From Nitrospirota bacterium (GTDB lineage Bacteria > Nitrospirota > Thermodesulfovibrionia > UBA6902 > BMS3Bbin08): a stretch of DNA of 47,883 nt. Both the position numbers and the translations under genes were made by a program. Positions within the stretch are counted from its first letter, which is position 1. Each line of letters starts with the position of its first letter. Where the stretch lies: the NCBI GenBank assembly GCA_016208845.1, contig JACQXH010000078.1, positions 14,605-62,487 on the forward strand, in the 5' to 3' direction. Shown here in pieces: positions 1-45,356 of this stretch. Under the pieces are notes generated by a model. It saw nothing but the letters and a program-made list of their open reading frames with translations. It searched no databases and was not told the origin of the DNA.

Positions 1-1650
1 TACCTTTTGAGTCTGTGTTTCTTTTTTCACCTCTATCCTTGGGAACAGCGGATCTCCTTTAGAAACCTTTATCTGATGGGATGGCCTCCAGTCCCATGAA
101 AATACATCGGGAAATTGAGATGAAGTGATACTATCAGCAAGCCCGATCTGATTCCAAATCCTGTCTGCCGTCTCAGGCATAAAAGGATATAGCGAAACTG
201 CAGTAAGCCTGAGAGCGTTCCAGAGATTCATCATCACACTTTTGACCGAGTCTTTATCATTTTTGAAAAGCTTCCACGGCTCTGTCTTTGCTATCAGGTT
301 ATTTGACTCGCTCACCATGATCCATATGCGTTCAAGTATGAGATTAAAGTTCAGATGAGTCCAGTATCTTTCATCCTGAGAGCTGGTCTTTGCATCATCG
401 CATAGCCTCTTATGCGCTTCTATCGGGTCCTGAACAGCGGCCGGTAAAACAGGCGGGTCGACTGCACCATTAAAATATTTTTCCGCCATAGTTAAAAACC
501 TGCTAAGGAGATTTCCGAGGTCATTGGCAAGGTCGGTGTTGATGCGGCCCACCAGGGCCTCCTCTGAAAAATCGCCGTCAAGGCCAAACGTCACTTCCCT
601 GAACAGGAAATATCTGAATGCGTCCACACCATATTTATCCACCATTTCATTCGGGTCCACGACATTGCCAATTGATTTGGACATCTTTTTGCCCTGCACA
701 GTCCACCAGCCGTGCGCGAAGATGTTGTAAGGGAGGGGGAAATTCAGGGCCATAAGCATCGTGGACCAGTAGACTGAATGTGTAGTGAGTATGTCCTTGC
801 CTATCAGATGATGCGTTGCAGGCCAAAAATCGAGTGACGAGTGACGAGCGACGAGCGACGACTGATGTGCCTGGCCTTTTAACTCGTTACCCGTTACCGG
901 TAACTCGTTACTGCCAGCCACTAAATACTTTGTCGCTGAAAAATAATTTACAAGCGCGTCAAACCAGACATATGTTACAAAATTTGCATCAAAGGGAAGC
1001 TGAATGCCCCATGAGAGCCTTGATTTGGGCCTTGATATGCAGAGGTCTCCGAGCGTGTTGTTCTTTAAAAAGCCGAGCACCTCATTTCTGCGCGTATCAG
1101 GGAGGATAAAGGACGGATTGTCGTCGATGTGTTTAATGAGCCTGTTCTGATATTTAGACATAAGGAAGAAATAATTTTCTTCCTGTATCTGATCGACAGG
1201 CCGCCCGCAGTCAGGACAGTTGCCGTCAACAAGGTCTTTCTCCGTCCAGAACCGCTCATCAGGCGTGCAATACCATCCTGCGTATTGTCTCTTTTCTATC
1301 TCTCCCTTGTCCCAGAGGATCTGCATGAGACCCTGCACAGTTTTAATGTGCGCCTCATCAGTGGTGCGGATGAAGGCGTCATTTGATATATTCAGCTTTT
1401 TCCAGAGGGTCTTGAAATTCTCGACCATTACATCGGAATGTTTTTGGGGAGAAAGCCCTTTTTCTGCGGCAGCCTTTTCTACCTTCTGTCCGTGTTCATC
1501 AGTGCCTGTAAGAAAGAAAACTTCTCTGCCTTCTGATCTATAGTGCCGCGACATTATGTCAGCCGCTATTGTTGTATATGCATGTCCTATATGAGGGATA
1601 TCATTTACATAATAGATGGGCGTGGTGATATAAAACTTCTTTTTATCCAT
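1..1650 (-). CDS. metG: Methionyl-tRNA synthetase, 3'-partial (runs off the window edge)
   Basis: Absent from the ORF track because no stop lies in the window. My translation from ATG 1650..1648 gives MDKKKFYITTPIYYVNDIPHIGHAYTT (HIGH), a CPDCGRP zinc knuckle and KMSKSIGN (KMSKS), and stays open to base 1. The start overlaps the TGA of the upstream ORF (TGATG). Confidence 0.93.
   Translation of the reverse strand, partial: MDKKKFYITTPIYYVNDIPHIGHAYTTIAADIMSRHYRSEGREVFFLTGTDEHGQKVEKAAAEKGLSPQKHSDVMVENFKTLWKKLNISNDAFIRTTDEAHIKTVQGLMQILWDKGEIEKRQYAGWYCTPDERFWTEKDLVDGNCPDCGRPVDQIQEENYFFLMSKYQNRLIKHIDDNPSFILPDTRRNEVLGFLKNNTLGDLCISRPKSRLSWGIQLPFDANFVTYVWFDALVNYFSATKYLVAGSNELPVTGNELKGQAHQSSLVARHSSLDFWPATHHLIGKDILTTHSVYWSTMLMALNFPLPYNIFAHGWWTVQGKKMSKSIGNVVDPNEMVDKYGVDAFRYFLFREVTFGLDGDFSEEALVGRINTDLANDLGNLLSRFLTMAEKYFNGAVDPPVLPAAVQDPIEAHKRLCDDAKTSSQDERYWTHLNFNLILERIWIMVSESNNLIAKTEPWKLFKNDKDSVKSVMMNLWNALRLTAVSLYPFMPETADRIWNQIGLADSITSSQFPDVFSWDWRPSHQIKVSKGDPLFPRIEVKKETQTQKV
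831..912. repeat. 81-82-nt heptamer-word hairpin element inserted in frame in metG
   Basis: Left arm is CGAGTGACGAGTGACGAGCGACGAGCGACGAC, an 18-nt loop follows, and the right arm is AACTCGTTACCCGTTACCGGTAACTCGTTAC. It encodes SNELPVTGNELKGQAHQSSLVARHSSL between the conserved NYxSA and FWP..HLIGKDI blocks. Confidence 0.8.
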
Positions 1651-2141
1651 CATATCTTTTTCTTTTTGAAGAATTTTTTCCGCCTGCTGAAGGGCCTTCC
1701 TTTGTCATCACGATGAGGCACGTGATCTTTTTTAGCTCCGGCCGCCTGCTGTTCTTTGCTCAGGCCCTGCCGTGACGGCTGAACATGGCTTTTTTCGGGT
1801 CTGATCTCCGCCGGCGGCGGTGCAGGATGAAAGGCCATCGGGACATTTTCCGTGTAACTTTTTTCTTCAATGACACTATCTTCTGTTACGATGACAGATT
1901 CATCCCCCACTGCAGCGGGTTCCTTTTTAGCGGGCTGCTCCATTTCATAACCCAGACAACACATAAGGCGGCCGCAGATACCGGACAGTTTCCCGGGGTT
2001 TAAGGCTCGTTCCTGCTTTTTAGCCATTCTTATGGAGATGGGTTCAAAAGAAGTCAGGAAAGCCTTGCAGCAGACCTCCCTGCCGCATACGCCGATACCT
2101 CCCATCAATTTAACCTCATCTCTGACCCCTATCTGCCGCAT
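1650..2141 (-). pseudogene. PSP1/RicT(YaaT)-like protein, C-terminal fragment
   Basis: MRQIGVRDEVKLMGGIGVCGREVCC...GICGRLMCCLGYE matches the PSP1 C-terminal cysteine-rich core. Upstream, in this same frame, PGDLASKFRTRIE continues the family motif. Confidence 0.8.
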
Positions 2142-2498: not shown

Positions 2499-3602
2499 TG
2501 ATCCTCCGAAAGTTTTCTTAAGCAGGAGATGCGTATGATAAAGAACAACGCGCTTATTTAAATTGAATCGCAGGGAATCCCTGATCCTTGAAAAAGTATT
2601 TGATAGTGTTAGTATATCATGTAATTCCGCTTTTTTTGAAATGACCCTGAGATCCTTTTCCCTGTCCCTGTTGATCAGGAGGTCTGTGCGGCCGGTGGCC
2701 TTTAATACTGCAATGTCTCTCAGCCATAGATGCACCCATGCAAACCATTCATCTTCAGAATCTTTCTCTTCCCACGGGTCTTCATCGATTTTTTCGAGGA
2801 GTTGCTGGAATGATAAGAACAAGCTGTCCCTTTTTTCGAGGAGCTCATCGTTTAATGCCAATCCGGGACGCCCGCCTGAAAGCATGCTCAGAATTACTGC
2901 TGTTTCAGGCTGCAAATTCTTACTGTCCGATTTATCTTCAAGCAATGCGCTCATTTTATTGATCGGTAAGGGCGAGAAGAATATCCTCTGGCACCTTGAG
3001 AGAATTGTTTTAGGCAGCAACTCCGGCCTGGGAGATATCAATATCAGGATACTCTGCTCCGGAGGCTCCTCCAATGTCTTAAGGAGGGCGTTTGCAGCGG
3101 ACTGATTGAGGGTTTCTGCCCCGTCAATGATCACGGCCTTCCAGCGCCCTTCAAAGGCCTTGTATGATAAAAACTCCTCTATCTTTCTTGTTATATCAAC
3201 CCTTATCTCTCCGTTGAAGGGGATGGCAAGAACGACATCAGGATGGGACAGATAGATCTTTGACCTTAAGTCATCGTCTTTTTCCCCGGGACTTATCAGG
3301 GCTTCCGGATAAAATAATTTATTTATCTTCAGACATGATGAACATTGATCACAACAGTCAAGCCGTAATGCGTGATCCGTTATGCGAAATGAGTTTTTAT
3401 CTTTTAGCCCGTCACGCATCACGTCTAACGCTTCACGGCTGTTCTGGCAATTAAGCGTTTTTATGAAATTTATTGCAGTAAGTTTTTTGCCGATGCCGTC
3501 GTCACCGGTAAAGACAAAGGCATGGCCGATACGGTTTCTCTCCATGCAGCCTCTTAGTATCTCCACTGCCTTTTCCTGTCCTATAATGTCCCTTAAGGCC
3601 AA
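2490..3602 (-). CDS. holB: DNA polymerase III delta-prime subunit
   Basis: HAFVFTGDDGIGKK P-loop-like motif, a CCDQCSSC zinc module, HPDV, LLKTLEEPP and ILSRCQ. Confidence 0.85.
   Translation of the reverse strand: MALRDIIGQEKAVEILRGCMERNRIGHAFVFTGDDGIGKKLTAINFIKTLNCQNSREALDVMRDGLKDKNSFRITDHALRLDCCDQCSSCLKINKLFYPEALISPGEKDDDLRSKIYLSHPDVVLAIPFNGEIRVDITRKIEEFLSYKAFEGRWKAVIIDGAETLNQSAANALLKTLEEPPEQSILILISPRPELLPKTILSRCQRIFFSPLPINKMSALLEDKSDSKNLQPETAVILSMLSGGRPGLALNDELLEKRDSLFLSFQQLLEKIDEDPWEEKDSEDEWFAWVHLWLRDIAVLKATGRTDLLINRDREKDLRVISKKAELHDILTLSNTFSRIRDSLRFNLNKRVVLYHTHLLLKKTFGGSGA
3363..3438. repeat. Heptamer-word hairpin element inside the holB coding region
   Basis: Arms are CCGTAATGCGTGATCCGTTATGCGAAATG and CGTCACGCATCACGTCTAACGCTTCACGG around an 18-nt loop. 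It encodes about 27 extra aa (SREALDVMRDGLKDKNSFRITDHALRL) between the P-loop and the zinc module. Confidence 0.65.
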
Positions 3603-26543: not shown

Positions 26544-27677
<1,134 letters not shown>

Positions 27678-27688
27678 TCAAAAAAGCA

Positions 27689-27946
27689 TTTAACCACGGA
27701 TGAACACAGATTAACACAGATCTGCCTGTCGGCAGAAAGACAAGTGCAAAATTAAATAAATATATCGGTACAACGTACTTCGTACAGCGTACCTCGTAAA
27801 AACAAAGACGAAATAATTACAAATCTACTAAAAAACTGTTACGAAGTACTAAGTACGATGTACGCAACACGATTCAGTCTGCAATCTGTGTTCTGATTGT
27901 CAGATTTAGTAATCCGTATCAATCCGCGAAGATCCGTGGCTGAATG
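27689..27946. repeat. Nested composite hairpin element, inverted copy of 7291-7556
   Basis: TTAACCACGGATGAACACAGATTAACACAGATCTGCCTGTCGGCAG, then CGTAC-word arms, then AGTCTGCAATCTGTGTTCTGATTGTC, then AATCCGCGAAGATCCGTGGC. Confidence 0.8.
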
Positions 27947-28558: not shown

Positions 28559-30301
28559 TCACATCTTCTCCGGGGCGCTGACTCCGAGAATTTTCAATCC
28601 CTCTTCAAGCGCAAGCTGAACAGCCCTGCAGAGGCTGAGCCTCGCACCGGTTATCACGCTGTCGTCTGTAAGGACCCTATGTTTATTGTAATAAGAATGA
28701 AAGAGCCGGGCCAGGTCCTGAAGATAATATGTTATCCTGTGCGGCTCAAAGGCAAATACCGCGCCTTCAAACATCATCGGATATTGGAGCAGTTTCTTGA
28801 TTATGGCGATCTCCTCGACTTCTTTTAATGCCGTTAAGTCTGTCCCTTGAACCCGAAAAGACCGTAATGCGTGATACGTAATGTGTGATGAGTTTGCTGT
28901 TCCCTGACTACTGTCTACTGAATACTGACTACTATCTTTCTGACCCCTGACCCTTCTCTCTTCCGCCTGCCTGAATATACTTGATATCCTTGCAAACGCA
29001 TACTGCACATAAAAAACAGGATTCTCCGCTGACTGCTCTTTTGCGACCTCTATGTCAAATTCGAGTTGACTGTCAGCCCTTCTTGTGAGAAATATGAATT
29101 TCGCTGTGTCAGAACCTACCTCATCAATTACCTCGCGCAGGGTTATGAATTCTCCTGCCCTCTTTGACATCTGCACGGGTTTGCCGTGCCTCAGGAGCGT
29201 TACCATCTGCACGATTATGACCCTGAATTTTTCCTTTGAAAGGCCGAAGGCCGAAAGCACCGACCTGATGCGCGGTATGTAGCCGTGATGGTCTGCGCCC
29301 CAGATGTCTATGATCGTATCAAAGCCCCTGTCGAGCTTGTCTTTGTGATAGGCGATATCAGAGGCAAAGTATGTATATTCGCCGTCCTGTTTGACAACAA
29401 CCCTGTCCTTGTCGTCGCCAAAGTTTGTTGAGCTGAACCATTTTGCGCCGTCTTTTTCATATAAAAAATTTTTATGCTGAAGCGCGGTCAGTGCCCCCTG
29501 GACCTTGCCTTTTTCATAAAGCTCTTTTTCGCTCTGCCATTTATCAAAGGTCACTCCAAAATCCTTCAGGTCCCTTTCAATATCGGACAGCATCATTTTA
29601 TAGGCATGACTGATAAAGAAATCACCGCATTGTTCAAAAGTATTATTAAGATATTTATTGCCGATATCTTTTATTATTTCTTCTGCTATCGAGGCGATAT
29701 AATCCCCTTTATAGCCGTTTTCAGGAAAATGGACGTCGTTTCCCAATGCCTGCTGATATCGTGAATAAACTGACAGCCCGAGGAGTTTTACCTGGAGTCC
29801 GGCGTCATTGACGTAAAACTCCTTCTCCACCTCAAACCCTGCCGCAGTAAGCAGGTTGCTAAGTGCATTGCCGATCGCAGCGCCCCTTCCATGCCCTATA
29901 TGAAGCGGCCCTGTTGGATTGGCGCTGATAAATTCGACCTGTATCCTTTTATTTTGTCCGAGGCCTGCGCTCAGGGATGGATGCCCTTCGCTCAGAAGTC
30001 GTTGCAGATTTTCATATAAGTATTCTTTTTTAAATCTGAAATTGATGAACCCTGCGCCTGCGATCTCTATATTTTCAAAAGGGCCGGATTGCTTAACTAT
30101 TTCTGAAAGAAGCTCTTCAGCTATCTTTTTAGGGGGCTTTTTGAGTGTTTTTGTAAGGCCCATTGCAACAGTGCTGGCAGCATCGCCAAGGTCCTCATTC
30201 CTTGGAATTTCCACATCTATATAGGGGATGCTTTCCAGCCCCCAGCCTTCTTTGAGGCTCGCAATGGCATTTGTGATCGCTTCAGTGACGGCCTTTTTCA
30301 T
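28559..30301 (-). CDS. argS: Arginyl-tRNA synthetase
   Basis: ANPTGPLHIGHGRG (HIGH), QMSKRAG, and the C-terminal anticodon-binding DALR region ending ...PEKM. Confidence 0.93.
   Translation of the reverse strand: MKKAVTEAITNAIASLKEGWGLESIPYIDVEIPRNEDLGDAASTVAMGLTKTLKKPPKKIAEELLSEIVKQSGPFENIEIAGAGFINFRFKKEYLYENLQRLLSEGHPSLSAGLGQNKRIQVEFISANPTGPLHIGHGRGAAIGNALSNLLTAAGFEVEKEFYVNDAGLQVKLLGLSVYSRYQQALGNDVHFPENGYKGDYIASIAEEIIKDIGNKYLNNTFEQCGDFFISHAYKMMLSDIERDLKDFGVTFDKWQSEKELYEKGKVQGALTALQHKNFLYEKDGAKWFSSTNFGDDKDRVVVKQDGEYTYFASDIAYHKDKLDRGFDTIIDIWGADHHGYIPRIRSVLSAFGLSKEKFRVIIVQMVTLLRHGKPVQMSKRAGEFITLREVIDEVGSDTAKFIFLTRRADSQLEFDIEVAKEQSAENPVFYVQYAFARISSIFRQAEERRVRGQKDSSQYSVDSSQGTANSSHITYHALRSFRVQGTDLTALKEVEEIAIIKKLLQYPMMFEGAVFAFEPHRITYYLQDLARLFHSYYNKHRVLTDDSVITGARLSLCRAVQLALEEGLKILGVSAPEKM
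28845..28955. repeat. Two adjacent heptamer-word tracts inserted in frame in argS
   Basis: CGTAATG CGTGATA CGTAATG TGTGATG, then CCCTGAC TACTGTC TACTGAA TACTGAC TACTATC ... CCCTGAC. It encodes about 35 extra aa (RVRGQKDSSQYSVDSSQGTANSSHITYHALRSFRVQG) between the catalytic and anticodon-binding domains. Confidence 0.7.
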
Positions 30302-33004: not shown

Positions 33005-33024
33005 TCTGCTTTCCTCCTTTAAAC

Positions 33025-33160
33025 TTGTAAATTGCAATTTGTAAATTTGAAATTTAAAAAAATTCCAAATTAAAATTTATAAACTCTGTGTCCCTGCCTG
33101 CCGGCAGGCAAGCTCTGTGGTTTACCCGCCTCTGGCGGCGCCTAAGGCGACCAGGGTTAA
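33025..33160. repeat. AAATTT-word tract plus a CACAGAG/CTGCC-GGCAG hairpin element
   Basis: AAATTGCAATTTGTAAATTTGAAATTTAAAAAAATTCCAAATTAAAATTT, followed by CTCTGTGTCCCTGCCTGCCGGCAGGCAAGCTCTGTGG. Confidence 0.65.
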
Positions 33161-37673: not shown

Positions 37674-40600
37674 TTAAGGTGCGCTTATCACCACACTCCG
37701 CAATTGCTGCAAGTGAGCTGCTTTTATAATGGTAATCCCCGGCTGGATGGGTTTATCTGTCCATGTCTGGGCGCCTATAGCCTGATCGATCGCAGTGCGT
37801 AGTTCATTTATGTGCACAGCTTTTACCGGGTTGTTCAGCAGTATCGGATCCGCGTCTGCCCAGGTGTACGGCTGAAATCCTTTTCTTTTTCTTAAGCTAT
37901 TGACTGCGCCTCTCAGCTCTGTAATATGTATTGCTTTGATCACAGTTGAATATTGTGTTATTGTGTTATCAGTCCAGACCTTTGATATATCAAGGGGATA
38001 AATGTCTATGCCGTCCATAGCCCCATCGCCGTCAGAATCTTTTATTGAAGGATTTGTGCCTTTCAGATACTCCTGAAGATTGGTCAGCCCGTCCCCATCA
38101 ATATCGTCATTAGGATTTAGTCCGCTTGTACCCCCATATGTGTCCTCAAATAGATCTGACATACCGTCATTGTCGCTGTCCGATGCGCAGCTTCTGGAAG
38201 GGTCGTACTTGCATGGATCGCACGCATCTCCTCTGCCGTCTCCGTCTATGTCTTCCTGATTTGGATTGGAAATGCCAATGCAGTTGTCATCACAATTGGT
38301 TTTGTTGCCGCCTTTGCACGGATTTTCAGCGGGAGCACCCAGACCGTCTGTATTGGGCGATATGCCGTCACTGTCAGTATCAAGGGCAAATGCAATATCA
38401 TTGGTGTCGTTATATGCAAATGTAAAACCAAATACCTCTTTCCCAAAGTTTTCAGTGGAAGGATGTGTCAAAAGGGTGTTCCTGGATCCGTTTGAAGCTA
38501 TATTCGGGAAACATATATTGTCCGGGCCAAATCCCCATTTGTTTGAAGCTATGAAAGTCTTATATCCGAAAGTTGTCCCATATCCCCAGGGATCATATAC
38601 AGGGATTCCTATGGGAATGCCTGATGGAGTGACAAGCAGGGCCCATGCTTCATTCCATGTGTTTCCGCTCATGTTTTCCCAGTGAATTATAAAGTTCTCG
38701 CCGTCAAAAGCTGCCACAGGCGTAACGTCGCTATGAATAAAGATAGGGGAACCGGTGGATACGCCGGAAGCGTCAAAGAATTCTATATATCCGACGCCCT
38801 GCCTTTTATAAACGACAAGGTATCCGTTGTTTCCATATACGACTCCATATGCGCCGCCTATGCCGGGCGATATAATCGAGAGAGTAGAACTGCCTAAAGT
38901 AACAATTTGCCCGTCAAGTTCGACAAGCCTGCCGAACAAGCCGTTTCCAAGCCATGAAACCAGGAACCTGTCATTTATGTTGTCATAAGCCGTTGAGTAC
39001 ACCCTGGTGCAGGCCCCATTTCCGGATATGGCAAATTCATTGCCGACCTTATTGCCGTTTATATCTGTAAACAGTCCATAGGTAACTGCCTGACCGCTTA
39101 TATCCCGCGCCCATGAAATAAGGAATTCATCATTGCCGCCTGTTACGTTTATTGGAATGCCGTATGCAGTGGGGCTGTTTACGCAGCCATAATAAAAATT
39201 CGGGTTGAGCAGGATCTTCTCTGCCGATACAGCGCCTGTCTGCTCATCAATGGTCCTTGCGGCAAGCTGAGAATATGTCGAGACACCCGGGGTGCAGGAT
39301 GCCGTACTGCACCTTTCATATACAACAAGGAATTTGCCGCTGCTATAAGAAATTCCGATATTGCTATGACCCTTAGTCCCTGCAAATACCGGGGCATATG
39401 ACCAATAATTGTCATTGAGAATATTAGTTACAGCGATCAGGAAGTTACTTCCTGTGAACTGTCCTGTGCTTTTATCTATAAACCTTCCGTATATCTCCCT
39501 TGAACCGTCATTGTCTTTATCAGCATCCCAAATTGCCATATATTTATTGGCGCCGGCAGCAGGGCGGTTAAAGTTCCCGTTCTTGGAAAAATCATTTGTG
39601 ATAGGGATATTAATGTCATCTGAGAAATTGCCTGAAGGCGGTATCCTTTGTATATAAATGTCTGTGCCGTCTGTTGCGCCGTCAGGGTCTTTACCTTCAA
39701 ATGGGGCGGCATTATACAAGGCCCTGCCGTCGGTCCAGGCCACAATATAGTGAGGATAATAGCTGGCAGTTGTGCTGTCGTAGTAATTTGAAAAAGCGAG
39801 CCGCGGTTTTGACAGAGAATTTGCTGCGGTTCTGTCTGAAATGCCGACGGTCTTTATGATACTCAAATTTTTGCCTGTAAAGCTACCCTTGAGATTAAGG
39901 TTATTCTCTGTCCATGCCACGAGATAATTAGTTCCATCAAAACCTGTAGTGGGATCGGCCTGATCCTGCGAACCGGATGCGATGGTTGCAGAAGCGCCCA
40001 GAGTTCCTGACTTACTTACAAGCCTTGCGATTACATCACGGTTAGTTGAAGGGCCTTCCTGCCAGGCCACCAGATAATTGGTCCCGTCAAAGCTGATCGC
40101 AGGGCCGCTCTGGTCCGGCGTGCCTGAGGCGACAGTTGCAGAAGCGCCCAGGGTCCCTGACTTGCTCACAAGCTTTGCAATTACATCCCGGTTAGTCGAA
40201 GGGCCTTCCTGCCAGGCCACCAGATAATTGGTCCCGTCAAAGCTGATCGCAGGGCTGGTCTGGTCCAGTGTGCCTGAGGCAATGGTTACAGACGTGCCTA
40301 ATGCTCCTGCCTGACTCACAAACCTTGCGATTATGTCACGGTTAGTTGCAGGTCCCTGCTGCCAGGCCACCAGATAATTGGTGCCGTCAAAGCTAACGGC
40401 CGGACTGCTCTTTTCAATAGTATTTGATGTGCTGTTTATGCGGACTGCCGTGCCTTTTACAATGTCAACGAAATAAAAAGAAGCCTGGAGCTGAGTTATT
40501 TTATCCCAGGTTTTTCCATAATATGCCTCATTGCGTCTCACACAATCATTTACATCTTCAACATCGATCTTGCTGCTTCCCACCTGGCATTTTTTTGTAA

Positions 40601-42701: not shown

Positions 42702-43327
42702 AGACAACTCAAAACTCAAAACTCAAAACTCAAAATTGTGGAAAAAAACATTTATTTAATAAAATGTTCCTTAATTTTGCATTTTGCTTTTTAAGTTTTG
42801 CATTTGCTGCTGCATCTTTTGCATCCGAAGGAGCGGAACATGCCGGATTTACGTGGAAAGACTGGCTCTGGCCTGTTGTTAATTTTACTGTCCTGGTCGT
42901 TGTTCTGGTGAAATTCCTGGCTAAGCCTGCAAGGGAATTTTTCCAAAAACGCACAGAGATGATAGAAAAGTCTATTAAGGATGCAGAAGAGGCAAAGGCT
43001 CTTGCCCAGAAGTCGCTGAATGAAGTGAAAGAGAGGCTAAGAGACGCTGACCGTGAGATAGGAGAGATCCTTGAGGCCGCTAAGAAATCAGGAGAAAAAG
43101 AGAAAGAGGCAATTATTGCTGAGGGCGAGGTTTTAAAGGCTAAAATCATAGAGCAGGCAAAGGCAAATATTGAATTTGAATTGCAAAAGGCAAAAGAGGC
43201 GATAAAATCAGAGGCTGCGATAATGGCGCTGGAGCTTGCGGAGAAAGAGATAAAGGCAAGGCTTGGCAAGAAAGAGCACGAGTCGCTTATTGATGAATAT
43301 ATCAAGAAACTTGAGGTAAGAAATTGA
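42698..43327 (+). CDS. atpF: F0F1 ATP synthase subunit b
   Basis: TM helix WLWPVVNFTVLVVVLVKFLAKP followed by a coiled coil. ATGA coupling to atpF2. The N-terminal ~40 codons are encoded by a repeat element. Confidence 0.8.
   Translation: MKTTQNSKLKTQNCGKKHLFNKMFLNFAFCFLSFAFAAASFASEGAEHAGFTWKDWLWPVVNFTVLVVVLVKFLAKPAREFFQKRTEMIEKSIKDAEEAKALAQKSLNEVKERLRDADREIGEILEAAKKSGEKEKEAIIAEGEVLKAKIIEQAKANIEFELQKAKEAIKSEAAIMALELAEKEIKARLGKKEHESLIDEYIKKLEVRN
42707..42807. repeat. CAAAACT-word hairpin element forming the 5' end of atpF
   Basis: ACTCAAAACTCAAAACTCAAAACTCAAAATTGTGGAAAAAAACATTTATTTAATAAAATGTTCCTTAATTTTGCATTTTGCTTTTTAAGTTTTGCATTTGC. The core AAAATTGTGGAAAAA...TTAATTTTG is shared with 8822-8920. 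Confidence 0.75.
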
Positions 43328-45273: not shown

Positions 45274-45356
45274 AACAGTGACGCGTAACGAGTAAGGAGT
45301 GACTGGATTGATTCCTTCAACTCGTTACTCGTAACCCGTAACTCGTCACTTAAATT
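45274..45356. repeat. Word-hairpin element filling the whole atpA-atpG spacer
   Basis: AGTGACGCGTAACGAGTAAGGAGTGAC, a loop, then AACTCGTTACTCGTAACCCGTAACTCGTCACT. The GTxACGA/CTCGTTAC words are the same as in the metG insertion. Confidence 0.8.

What the first reader, a model, noticed from the sequence alone, without database searches (positions are those of the whole stretch)
831..912. 81-nt hairpin element made of tandem heptamer 'words' inserted in frame in metG
The arms are (GTGACGA/GCGACGA)x4 and (CTCGTTAC-like)x4 around an 18-nt loop. The element adds 27 aa (SNELPVTGNELKGQAHQSSLVARHSSL) between conserved MetRS blocks without breaking the frame. Several arm mismatches are G:T pairs on the plus strand, which is antisense to metG. 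The same word pair forms the atpA-atpG spacer at 45274-45356. In-frame selfish palindromes in essential genes are known from Rickettsia (RPEs), and tandem heptamers from heterocystous cyanobacteria (STRR/SDR). I do not know of such elements described outside those groups.
Basis: partly seen in the sequence, partly recalled or inferred. Interest (0 to 1): 0.6.

Follow-up and report, generated by a model that had tools for sequence, protein, structure and literature searches.

The report
Translated heptamer-repeat hairpin inside metG
An 81-base hairpin repeat built from 7-base words sits in frame in a floppy surface loop of an essential enzyme (methionyl-tRNA synthetase) of a groundwater Nitrospirota bacterium; it is one of over 100 such repeats in the genome, and the same loop has been overwritten by different repeats again and again in related species.

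Summary
Window 832-912 encodes S248-L274 of MetRS (minus strand). It consists of four GTNACGA-type heptamers, a 21-nt loop and four TCGTNAC-type heptamers; 19 of 28 arm positions pair.

It belongs to a genome-wide class. I found 114 period-7 arrays, against 0-2 in simulated genomes. 44 of 115 array clusters lie in frame inside long ORFs (36 proteins). Ten of ten tested proteins are real enzymes whose Pfam domain spans the insert.

The insert coincides with the only long low-confidence segment of an otherwise confident AlphaFold model. Stop-codon avoidance shapes its words, so it is most likely translated.

Across 81 orthologues the same loop carries heptamer arrays in 18. The words differ between species, and at least 19 state changes are needed. 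In close pairs the ancestral loop (PHAENAKLGDF) is replaced, not merely interrupted.

Stems inside genes are much weaker than intergenic stems. The claim that such repeats are undescribed elsewhere is wrong: they are reported from Geobacter, Beggiatoaceae, Xanthomonas and the Coxiella IVS.

All six PF05635 (IVS-protein) genes of this genome show short tandem words beside them; five have inverted arms on both sides. These may be the long form of the element.

Verdict: a tolerated selfish or neutral repeat, and a new variant of a known kind.

The parts
1..1653 (-). metG (methionyl-tRNA synthetase). The ORF runs off the window start; 551 aa lie in the window.
   Evidence: The ORF is. It matches solved MetRS structures with E 8e-136 to Aquifex 2csx. 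Thermodesulfovibrionales orthologues are 61-74% identical.
885..912 (-). 5' arm on the mRNA strand: GTAACGA GTTACCG GTAACGG GTAACGA, encoding SNELPVTGNE.
   Evidence: The middle letter of GTNAC is T exactly where the codon phase is TNA, which avoids TAA and TGA.
861..884 (-). Loop of the hairpin, about 21-24 nt, encoding LKGQAHQ.
   Evidence: The loop sequence is not shared with other copies of the word family.
832..860 (-). 3' arm on the mRNA strand: TCGTCGC TCGTCGC TCGTCAC TCGTCAC TC, encoding SSLVARHSSL.
   Evidence: The same SSLVTRHSSL-type peptide recurs in at least 10 other ORFs of the genome.
45276..45351 (+). Intergenic copy of the same word family, filling the atpA-atpG spacer.
   Evidence: 21 of 28 Watson-Crick pairs, -33.4 kcal/mol, z -4.6 on the sense strand.
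3355..3440 (-). Second in-frame heptamer hairpin of the window, in holB (CGTGATG / CGCATNA words; peptide DVMRDGLKDKNSFRITDHALRL).
   Evidence: Arrays sit at the matching position upstream of metG in at least 8 orthologous loci.
27119..27149 (-). Perfect (AGTGCGG)x4.4 array in frame in tgt (peptide [12 protein letters not shown]).
   Evidence: TRF gives 100% matches. The Pfam TGT domain spans residues 1-332 across the array.

Best explanation
The element is a short, gene-less copy of a dispersed class of hairpin repeats. Each arm of such a repeat is about four tandem 7-nt 'words' (4 x 7 = 28 nt). Copies of this class arise or land throughout the genome.

Inside genes, copies survive only under three conditions. 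Their length must keep the reading frame. The strand and word variants must contain no stop codon. The site must be a surface loop that tolerates extra, disordered residues.

The metG copy meets all three conditions. It is transcribed and translated as a floppy loop of about 27 residues between helix 229-243 and strand 281-285 of MetRS. It most likely has no function of its own for the enzyme.

Once inside a gene, the stem decays or is selected to be weak.

The metG loop is a permissive hot spot. In the order Thermodesulfovibrionales it has been overwritten many times by different heptamer arrays and other small palindromes, and these replaced the ancestral loop.

What is shown:
- the repeat class and the in-frame copies in real enzymes;
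- stop avoidance;
- the disordered-loop position;
- recurrent turnover at one site;
- weaker stems in coding copies.

What is inferred:
- translation (no peptide data);
- the absence of a host function;
- the way copies spread (a hairpin-dependent DNA process, enzyme unknown).
For: Repeat class:
- 114 period-7 arrays against 0-2 simulated. They are 3-6 units long.
- About 25 loci carry GTNAC-type words, many laid out as arm-loop-arm.
- One family (AAATGAG words) has 16 conserved copies with a shared loop, which indicates copy-and-paste spread.

In-frame copies:
- 44 of 115 clusters lie in long ORFs.
- In 10 of 10 proteins tested, the Pfam domain spans the insert: DapF, MurD, MqnE/CofH-like, HemC, P-type ATPase, HemH, MnmA, Tgt, HisF and ThiE.

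Translation:
- In sense-strand GTNAC words, N is never A or G where the codon is TNA.
- GTGAC, which would give TGA, occurs 0 times in 65 words inside ORFs.
- The metG arm has GTT at exactly those phases.

Structure:
- Model pLDDT 85, pTM 0.87. The only long segment below 50 is residues 249-273.
- Aquifex MetRS has 5 residues at this position.

Hot spot:
- 18 of 81 orthologous loops contain period-7 arrays.
- The tree needs at least 19 state changes.
- L011 and L022 have nearly identical flanks but unrelated cassettes.
- In L002 against L038, and in L004/L007/L008, the ancestral loop is replaced.
- Loci whose metG carries an insert have three times more arrays in their flanks: 1.17 against 0.38 per 10 kb.

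Stem decay:
- Coding clusters average 16.4 of 28 Watson-Crick pairs, and 0 of 44 reach 22.
- Non-coding clusters average 19.8, and 22 of 71 reach 22.
- The random background is 15.8. Mann-Whitney p = 2e-10.

Reality of the element:
- An independent contig spans it.
- The same kind of insert occurs in MAGs from many different studies.
Against: - No RNA or peptide data show that the insert is present in the mature mRNA or protein.
- Loops differ between copies of the GTNACGA family, and no target-site duplication is seen. Classical transposition is therefore not demonstrated.
- Replacement of the ancestral loop is not what a simple insertion predicts.
- The genome is an 82%-complete MAG in 277 contigs, so counts are lower bounds and repeats may break contigs.
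- The query lineage has no close relative in the data, so its own insertion event cannot be dated.
- Lack of function is an argument from absence.
Confidence: 0.78

Rival explanations
1. The short hairpin is the gene-less form of an IVS-like cassette. The long form would carry a PF05635 four-helix-bundle ('23S rRNA intervening sequence protein') gene between the same kind of 4 x 7-nt arms. The class would be moved or maintained by a dedicated mechanism involving that protein, with RNase III acting on the 28-bp stem in RNA.
For: - This genome has six PF05635 genes. Short tandem words lie beside all six. Five (C274, C65, C152, C52, C90) have inverted arms on both sides; C208 shows an array on its 3' side only.
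- Of 35 such genes from 30 Nitrospirota genomes, 18 have a strong period-7 array on at least one flank, against 12% of control windows. Five have one on both flanks, against 1% of controls.
- PF05635 occurs in 227 of 401 genomes of the phylum, often in several copies.
- The Coxiella IVS has a 28-bp stem, three to four GACAGAT heptamers and an RNase III cut at the first repeat (PMC4990558).
- Coding copies have degraded stems, as expected if intact stems are cut in mRNA.
Against: - The metG element carries no gene.
- The arms of the six cassettes use other words than GTNACGA.
- No enzyme activity is known for PF05635.
- No target duplication or movement is seen.
- Earlier notes of this scan report that copies within a genome rarely share arms and that strictly armed genes are a small minority of the family.
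- No reverse transcriptase is found in this genome.
Confidence: 0.35
2. The hairpin is a functional regulatory structure in metG. It could be an antisense RNA or DNA hairpin on the + strand, an RNase III or attenuation site, or a translational pause.
For: - Hairpin potential exists on both strands.
- A T5 run follows the stem on the sense strand.
- Intergenic relatives, such as the atpA-atpG spacer, fold strongly and could set differential mRNA stability.
Against: - The stem is weak: 19 of 28 pairs, z -1.2 and -2.1.
- There is no G:T strand bias.
- No promoter-like or terminator-like site and no Rfam match were found.
- Close relatives carry unrelated sequences, non-complementary arms, single arms or the short ancestral loop at the same site. 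No structure is conserved.
Confidence: 0.07
3. It is a lineage-specific functional MetRS loop whose repeat-like DNA is incidental, or an assembly artefact.
For: The loop between the NYFSAT and WWPA blocks varies in length in MetRS generally. S. aureus and E. coli also have longer segments there.
Against: - The same DNA words occur at about 25 other loci, including intergenic ones.
- The peptide is predicted to be disordered.
- Same-family genomes G004, G002 and G005 have the short loop.
- An independent contig spans the element, and the reading frame is intact.
Confidence: 0.03
4. It is a contingency (phase-variation) locus: slippage of 7-nt units would switch metG on and off.
For: Units of 7 nt shift the frame when one is gained or lost. 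Heptamer copy number varies among Coxiella strains.
Against: - metG is essential and single-copy.
- Arrays are short (3-6 units) and imperfect.
- The runs laid on the region show no length variants, although they are contigs, which hide rare variants.
Confidence: 0.02

Closest known systems
Rickettsia palindromic elements (RPE; Ogata et al. 2000, cited from my own knowledge)
   Same: Both are small palindromic repeats, dispersed through the genome, and found in frame inside many housekeeping genes. Both are translated as extra surface segments without destroying function.
   Different: RPEs are 100-150-bp families with a conserved consensus, restricted to Rickettsia. Here only the 7-nt word type and the 4+4 architecture are shared, loops differ, and words differ between species. 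No sequence relationship was tested or is expected.
Tandem heptanucleotide repeats. These include cyanobacterial STRR (Mazel 1990, own knowledge), TAACTGA arrays of Beggiatoaceae, cyanobacteria and Bacteroidetes (PMC4679880), GGGNATC arrays of Xanthomonas and Nostoc (PMC4692102), and the four-unit GGGACCG and five-unit MTYCTGA elements of Geobacter metallireducens (PMC2700814).
   Same: All share the 7-nt unit, short arrays with a preference for about four units, many dispersed loci and a mostly intergenic position. [quoted passage not shown]
   Different: The words are different. The paired inverted-arm layout, the scale of in-frame coding copies in core enzymes (at least 36 proteins) and the recurrent replacement of one orthologous loop are not described in those papers as far as I read them.
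ORF-bearing 23S rRNA intervening sequence of Coxiella burnetii and Leptospira (PMC4990558)
   Same: Both have a 28-bp stem formed by terminal inverted repeats containing tandem heptamers. The same genome here has six PF05635 genes with short tandem words beside them, five of them bracketed by inverted arms on both sides.
   Different: The metG element has no ORF in its loop. It lies in an mRNA coding region rather than in rRNA, and its stem is degraded. RNase III cutting is untested here.
REP / REPIN elements with RAYT transposases (PMC3116915)
   Same: Both are short dispersed hairpins, possibly moved as single-stranded DNA hairpins. Three Y1-transposase genes are present in this genome.
   Different: There is no GTAG-type REP motif in this element. 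The Y1 genes are not flanked by heptamer arms. REPs are extragenic.

Membership tests
Rickettsia palindromic elements (RPE) | Palindromic repeat inserted in frame in protein-coding genes | tested here: met
   The metG frame is intact across 832-912. 44 array clusters lie inside long ORFs, and in 10 of 10 tested proteins the Pfam domain spans the insert.
Rickettsia palindromic elements (RPE) | Sequence homology to an RPE family consensus; Rickettsia host | tested here: not met
   The host is a Thermodesulfovibrionales MAG. The element is built of heptamer words with no conserved full-length consensus. No RPE consensus was aligned.
Tandem heptanucleotide repeat class (STRR / LSSR / Geobacter four-unit elements) | Tandem 7-nt units, short arrays (about four units), many dispersed copies | tested here: met
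   TRF gives period 7 at 831-865 and 885-911. The genome has 114 arrays of 3-6 units, against 0-2 simulated.
Tandem heptanucleotide repeat class (STRR / LSSR / Geobacter four-unit elements) | Same word as a described family (CCCCAGT, TAACTGA, GGGNATC, GGGACCG) | tested here: not met
   The words here are GTNACGA / TCGTNAC.
IVS-type heptamer-armed cassette (PF05635 cargo) | About 28-bp stem made of about four heptamers per arm | tested here: inconclusive
   The arm length and word number fit, but only 19 of 28 positions pair.
IVS-type heptamer-armed cassette (PF05635 cargo) | PF05635 gene in the loop | tested here: not met
   The loop is 21 nt. The six PF05635 genes lie elsewhere in the genome, each beside short tandem words of other types; five have inverted arms on both sides.
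IVS-type heptamer-armed cassette (PF05635 cargo) | Excision or cleavage of the stem by RNase III | not testable with these tools
   No RNA runs hold this sequence.
REP/REPIN-RAYT | RAYT gene flanked by its cognate hairpins; GTAG-type REP | tested here: not met
   Three Y1_Tnp genes are present, and none has heptamer arms in its flanks.
MITE | Terminal inverted repeats plus target-site duplication, derived from an IS | tested here: not met
   In filled-against-empty comparisons the ancestral loop is replaced and no duplication is visible.
Contingency SSR locus | Unit-number polymorphism that switches the reading frame | tested here: inconclusive
   No length variants appear in four runs, but the runs are contigs, which drop rare variants.

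The most novel reading that the evidence does not exclude
Heptamer-armed hairpins may be the gene-less form of PF05635 (IVS-protein) cassettes. A dedicated, still unknown DNA-level process would write or exchange 4 x 7-nt arm cassettes. That process would overwrite permissive loops of essential enzymes as a replacement rather than a simple insertion. Defined surface loops such as the metG 245-275 loop would then turn over far faster than the rest of the gene across Nitrospirota.
Probability: 0.3. Interest if true: 0.8.

Novelty: new variant of a known kind. Interest (0 to 1): 0.55.

Why it matters
- Non-triplet (7-nt) repeats and hairpins can persist, translated, inside dozens of essential bacterial genes. 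They are filtered only by reading frame, stop codons and loop tolerance.
- One orthologous loop of MetRS acts as a recurrent landing or replacement site across a whole order. That gives a natural experiment on insertion tolerance and on how such repeats spread.
- The contrast between stems in coding and non-coding copies, together with the link to IVS-protein cassettes, suggests testable roles for RNase III and PF05635. Heptamer repeats have been noted for decades in cyanobacteria, Xanthomonas, Geobacter and Coxiella without explanation, so this bears on an old puzzle.
- On the practical side, these inserts inflate protein lengths, break assemblies and can mislead annotation of MAGs.

Tried and rejected
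- Strand-specific G:T pairing: counted in register, 3 on the + strand against 4 on the - strand. Rejected.
- Promoter or terminator function: none found at either element, although the scanner only accepts loops of 3-8 nt.
- Rfam: no match at E up to 1 for either element.
- Recent horizontal transfer of the insert-bearing metG segment between the query and L057: sliding-window identity shows no rise in the flanks.
- Reverse-transcriptase-based spread: no RVT_1 in the genome.
- RAYT-type mobilisation: three Y1 transposase genes are present but carry no heptamer arms.
- Single ancestral insertion: rejected for the order as a whole by the tree. It is still open for the query together with L057 and L064, which share words, frame and boundaries.
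- Search for a same-genus relative to date the event: none is held.
- RNA evidence: only DNA runs hold the sequence.
- One search was a mistaken input and gave nothing.
Full report
WHAT IS THERE

The minus strand of window 1..1653 is metG. It matches solved MetRS structures with E 8e-136 to Aquifex aeolicus 2csx.

Window 832-912 encodes S248-L274 (SNELPVTGNELKGQAHQSSLVARHSSL). On the mRNA strand it reads as follows:
- GTAACGA GTTACCG GTAACGG GTAACGA;
- a loop of about 21 nt;
- TCGTCGC TCGTCGC TCGTCAC TCGTCAC.

TRF reports period 7 for both arms. In the best register, 19 of 28 arm positions form Watson-Crick pairs. There are 3 G:T pairs on the + strand and 4 on the - strand. Folding is only modestly better than shuffled sequence: z -1.2 on the + strand and z -2.1 on the - strand.

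The atpA-atpG spacer (45276-45351) uses the same words. It has 21 of 28 pairs and folds at z -4.6 on the sense strand.

A 311-nt Logan contig from groundwater run X1 spans 726-1036 with one difference. 31-mers of the first arm reach depths of 150-720 in four runs, so such arrays are abundant in that community.

DELIMITING THE INSERT

Aquifex MetRS has 5 residues where the query has 33 (query 243-275).

Among 81 orthologues from Nitrospirota MAGs (mostly Thermodesulfovibrionales), the majority state is a short loop, YLAPHAExAxLGDFWWPA. The query therefore carries about 20 extra residues relative to that state.

An AlphaFold2 model built on 51 orthologues has mean pLDDT 85 and pTM 0.87. Its only long low-confidence segment is residues 249-273, between helix 229-243 and strand 281-285. 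The insert is thus a disordered surface loop.

A GENOME-WIDE CLASS

The window lies in a 2.24-Mb MAG of 277 contigs, 82% complete.
- A period-7 scan finds 114 arrays of at least 3 units, against 0-2 in second-order Markov simulations. Period 8 is also enriched (51 against 0-2). Period 5 is at chance level.
- Arrays are 3-6 units long.
- There are many word families. About 25 loci carry GTNAC-type words, often as arm-loop-arm with unrelated loops.
- One family (AAATGAG words) has 16 copies with a conserved loop and outer arms, which is the signature of copy-and-paste spread.

COPIES INSIDE GENES

44 of 115 array clusters lie inside long open frames with at least 50 codons on each side. They fall in 36 proteins. 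About 80% of the genome lies in long open frames, so arrays are depleted in genes yet still numerous there.

All ten proteins tested are real enzymes whose Pfam domain spans the insert: DapF, MurD (two inserts), an MqnE/CofH-like radical-SAM enzyme, HemC (two), a P-type ATPase, HemH (two), MnmA, Tgt, HisF and ThiE.

A heptamer array read in any frame gives the same 7-residue peptide, cyclically permuted. This explains the recurrent SSLVTRHSSL, GQGSRVKGQGS and similar peptides.

EVIDENCE FOR TRANSLATION

In sense-strand GTNAC words inside ORFs, N is C or T (23 of 23) whenever the codon is TNA. GTGAC, which would give TGA once every three words, occurs 0 times in 65 words.

In metG the two words that fall in the TNA phase are GTTACCG and GTTAAAA. 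These substitutions also account for some of the arm mismatches.

This is indirect evidence. No RNA or peptide data exist.

STEMS ARE WEAKER IN GENES

The best ungapped 28-nt stems compare as follows:
- non-coding clusters average 19.8 Watson-Crick pairs, and 22 of 71 have at least 22;
- coding clusters average 16.4, and 0 of 44 reach 22;
- the random background is 15.8;
- Mann-Whitney p = 2e-10.

Coding copies are therefore single arms, chimeric arms or decayed hairpins. The metG copy (19 of 28) is among the better coding copies.

THE METG LOOP IS A HOT SPOT

18 of 81 orthologous loops contain period-7 arrays. Others hold C-run/G-run palindromes.

The words differ between species. Examples are GTAATGG/TCATCAC, GGAGTCA/CTCTTAA, AGTCAGC/CTTTCAA, AAATCTC, CCTCACG and GTTCACG. 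Some loops have non-complementary arms, a single arm, or a second palindrome nested inside the loop (L090).

On a tree built without the loop columns, the loop states need at least 19 changes and show no clustering.

Close pairs differ completely:
- L011 and L022 have nearly identical flanks but unrelated cassettes.
- L004, L007 and L008 form a tight clade with two different cassettes and one ancestral loop.
- L002 carries a cassette, while its sister L038 has the ancestral loop.

In these comparisons the ancestral loop of about 33 nt is gone. The event looks like a replacement bounded by TAYCTYGC and TGGTGGCC, without a target duplication.

Loci whose metG carries an insert also have three times more arrays in their flanks. 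Many of those flank arrays sit at one position in holB. The query's holB has its own in-frame hairpin there.

The query shares words, frame and both boundaries with L057 (a same-family genome) and L064. This could reflect common descent or repeated insertion of the same element. Sliding-window identity shows no recent transfer, and no same-genus genome is held.

DISTRIBUTION

A (GTNAYNN)x3-GTNAY pattern occurs in 134 of 401 genomes of the phylum and in 76 of 163 genera. Counts range from 0 to about 180 per genome, and the own genome has 80.

LINK TO IVS-PROTEIN CASSETTES (a lead from earlier notes, tested here)

The genome has six PF05635 genes. Short tandem words lie beside all six. Five (C274, C65, C152, C52, C90) have inverted arms on both sides; C208 shows an array on its 3' side only.

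Of 35 such genes from 30 genomes, 18 have a strong period-7 array on at least one flank, against 12% of control windows. Five have one on both flanks, against 1% of controls.

The Coxiella 23S IVS has a 28-bp stem, three to four GACAGAT heptamers and an RNase III cut at the first repeat (PMC4990558).

The short hairpins may therefore be gene-less forms of such cassettes. This is not shown, for four reasons:
- the arms of the six cassettes use other words;
- no enzyme activity is known for PF05635;
- there is no reverse transcriptase in the genome;
- the three Y1 transposase genes have no heptamer arms.

Later checks recorded in this scan are also cautious.

OTHER TESTS

No promoter-like site, terminator-like site or Rfam match was found at either element.

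COMPARISON WITH WHAT IS KNOWN

The element works like an RPE, being an in-frame palindrome in housekeeping genes, but it is not a member of that family.

It belongs to the loosely defined class of short tandem heptanucleotide repeats:
- Geobacter four-unit elements within and between genes (PMC2700814);
- TAACTGA arrays (PMC4679880);
- GGGNATC arrays with a four-unit preference (PMC4692102);
- STRR (my own knowledge).

Three things are not in those papers as far as I read them:
- the paired-arm architecture combined with dozens of translated copies in core enzymes;
- the coding-against-non-coding contrast in stems;
- the recurrent replacement of one orthologous loop.

I found no paper on such repeats in Nitrospirota.

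VERDICT

The element is most likely a tolerated, translated passenger at a permissive hot spot. How it spreads remains open.

Noticed in passing
window 3355-3440 (minus strand, holB): A second in-frame heptamer hairpin (CGTGAAG CGTTAGA CGTGATG CGTGACG ... CGCATAA CGGATCA CGCATTA) encodes DVMRDGLKDKNSFRITDHALRL just before the Cys-rich module of DNA polymerase III delta'. Arrays sit at the matching position in at least 8 orthologous loci, so this is a second hot spot 2.5 kb from the first.
   Followed up: partly
window 27119-27149 (tgt), 27768-27864, 28863-28933, 42706-42805, 33020-33059: TRF lists further period-7 arrays in the window. They include a perfect (AGTGCGG)x4.4 array in frame in tgt and a perfect (AACTCAA)x4.3 array near the start of the atp operon.
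   Followed up: partly
genome contigs C14, C19, C21, C98, C105, C106, C114, C143, C167, C172, C189, C202, C213 (two copies), C215, C239: There are 16 copies of a conserved nested hairpin element of about 130 nt. The inner arms are TGAGAAG/TGAGAAA words, the loop AAAAGACAAGAGATTTT is conserved, and the outer arms are CACAGAGGCACGGAGG / CTCTGTGCCTCTGTGG. It looks like a recently active miniature element.
   Followed up: partly
genome C274:3819-4130, C90:4909-5223, C65:9173-9487, C152:599-916, C52:4960-5271, C208:10038-10295: Six PF05635 (23S rRNA IVS-protein family) genes lie beside short tandem words of a different type at each locus. Five have inverted arms on both sides; C208 shows an array on its 3' side only. 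The C274 copy lies 600 nt from an in-frame array in hisF.
   Followed up: yes
many ORFs of the genome, e.g. C147, C168, C175, C210, C19: Other recurrent in-frame peptides point to further small palindromic repeat families translated inside genes. Examples are SRYDS(S/I)PRGKGQG, QVDTTRFRGS and LPAGQAGVT, from DNA such as GTCGATACGACTCG and CCTGCCGGCAGGCAGG.
   Followed up: no
whole genome: Period-8 arrays are also far above expectation: 51 observed against 0-2 simulated.
   Followed up: no
L090 (G012) metG loop: A C-run/G-run palindrome (CCCCCCTTAATAAGGGGGG type) sits nested inside the loop of a GGAGTCA-word hairpin. The same palindrome type alone occupies the loop in L003, L009, L026, L099, L101 and L116.
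   Followed up: partly
G003:C5:200-1807 and G010:C13:21291-22865: The metG matches in two relatives each contain one in-frame stop (TAA, TAG). Where the stops lie relative to the loop was not examined.
   Followed up: no
window 39985-40394: A 150-nt tandem repeat, 2.7 copies, 85% matches (TRF score 596).
   Followed up: no
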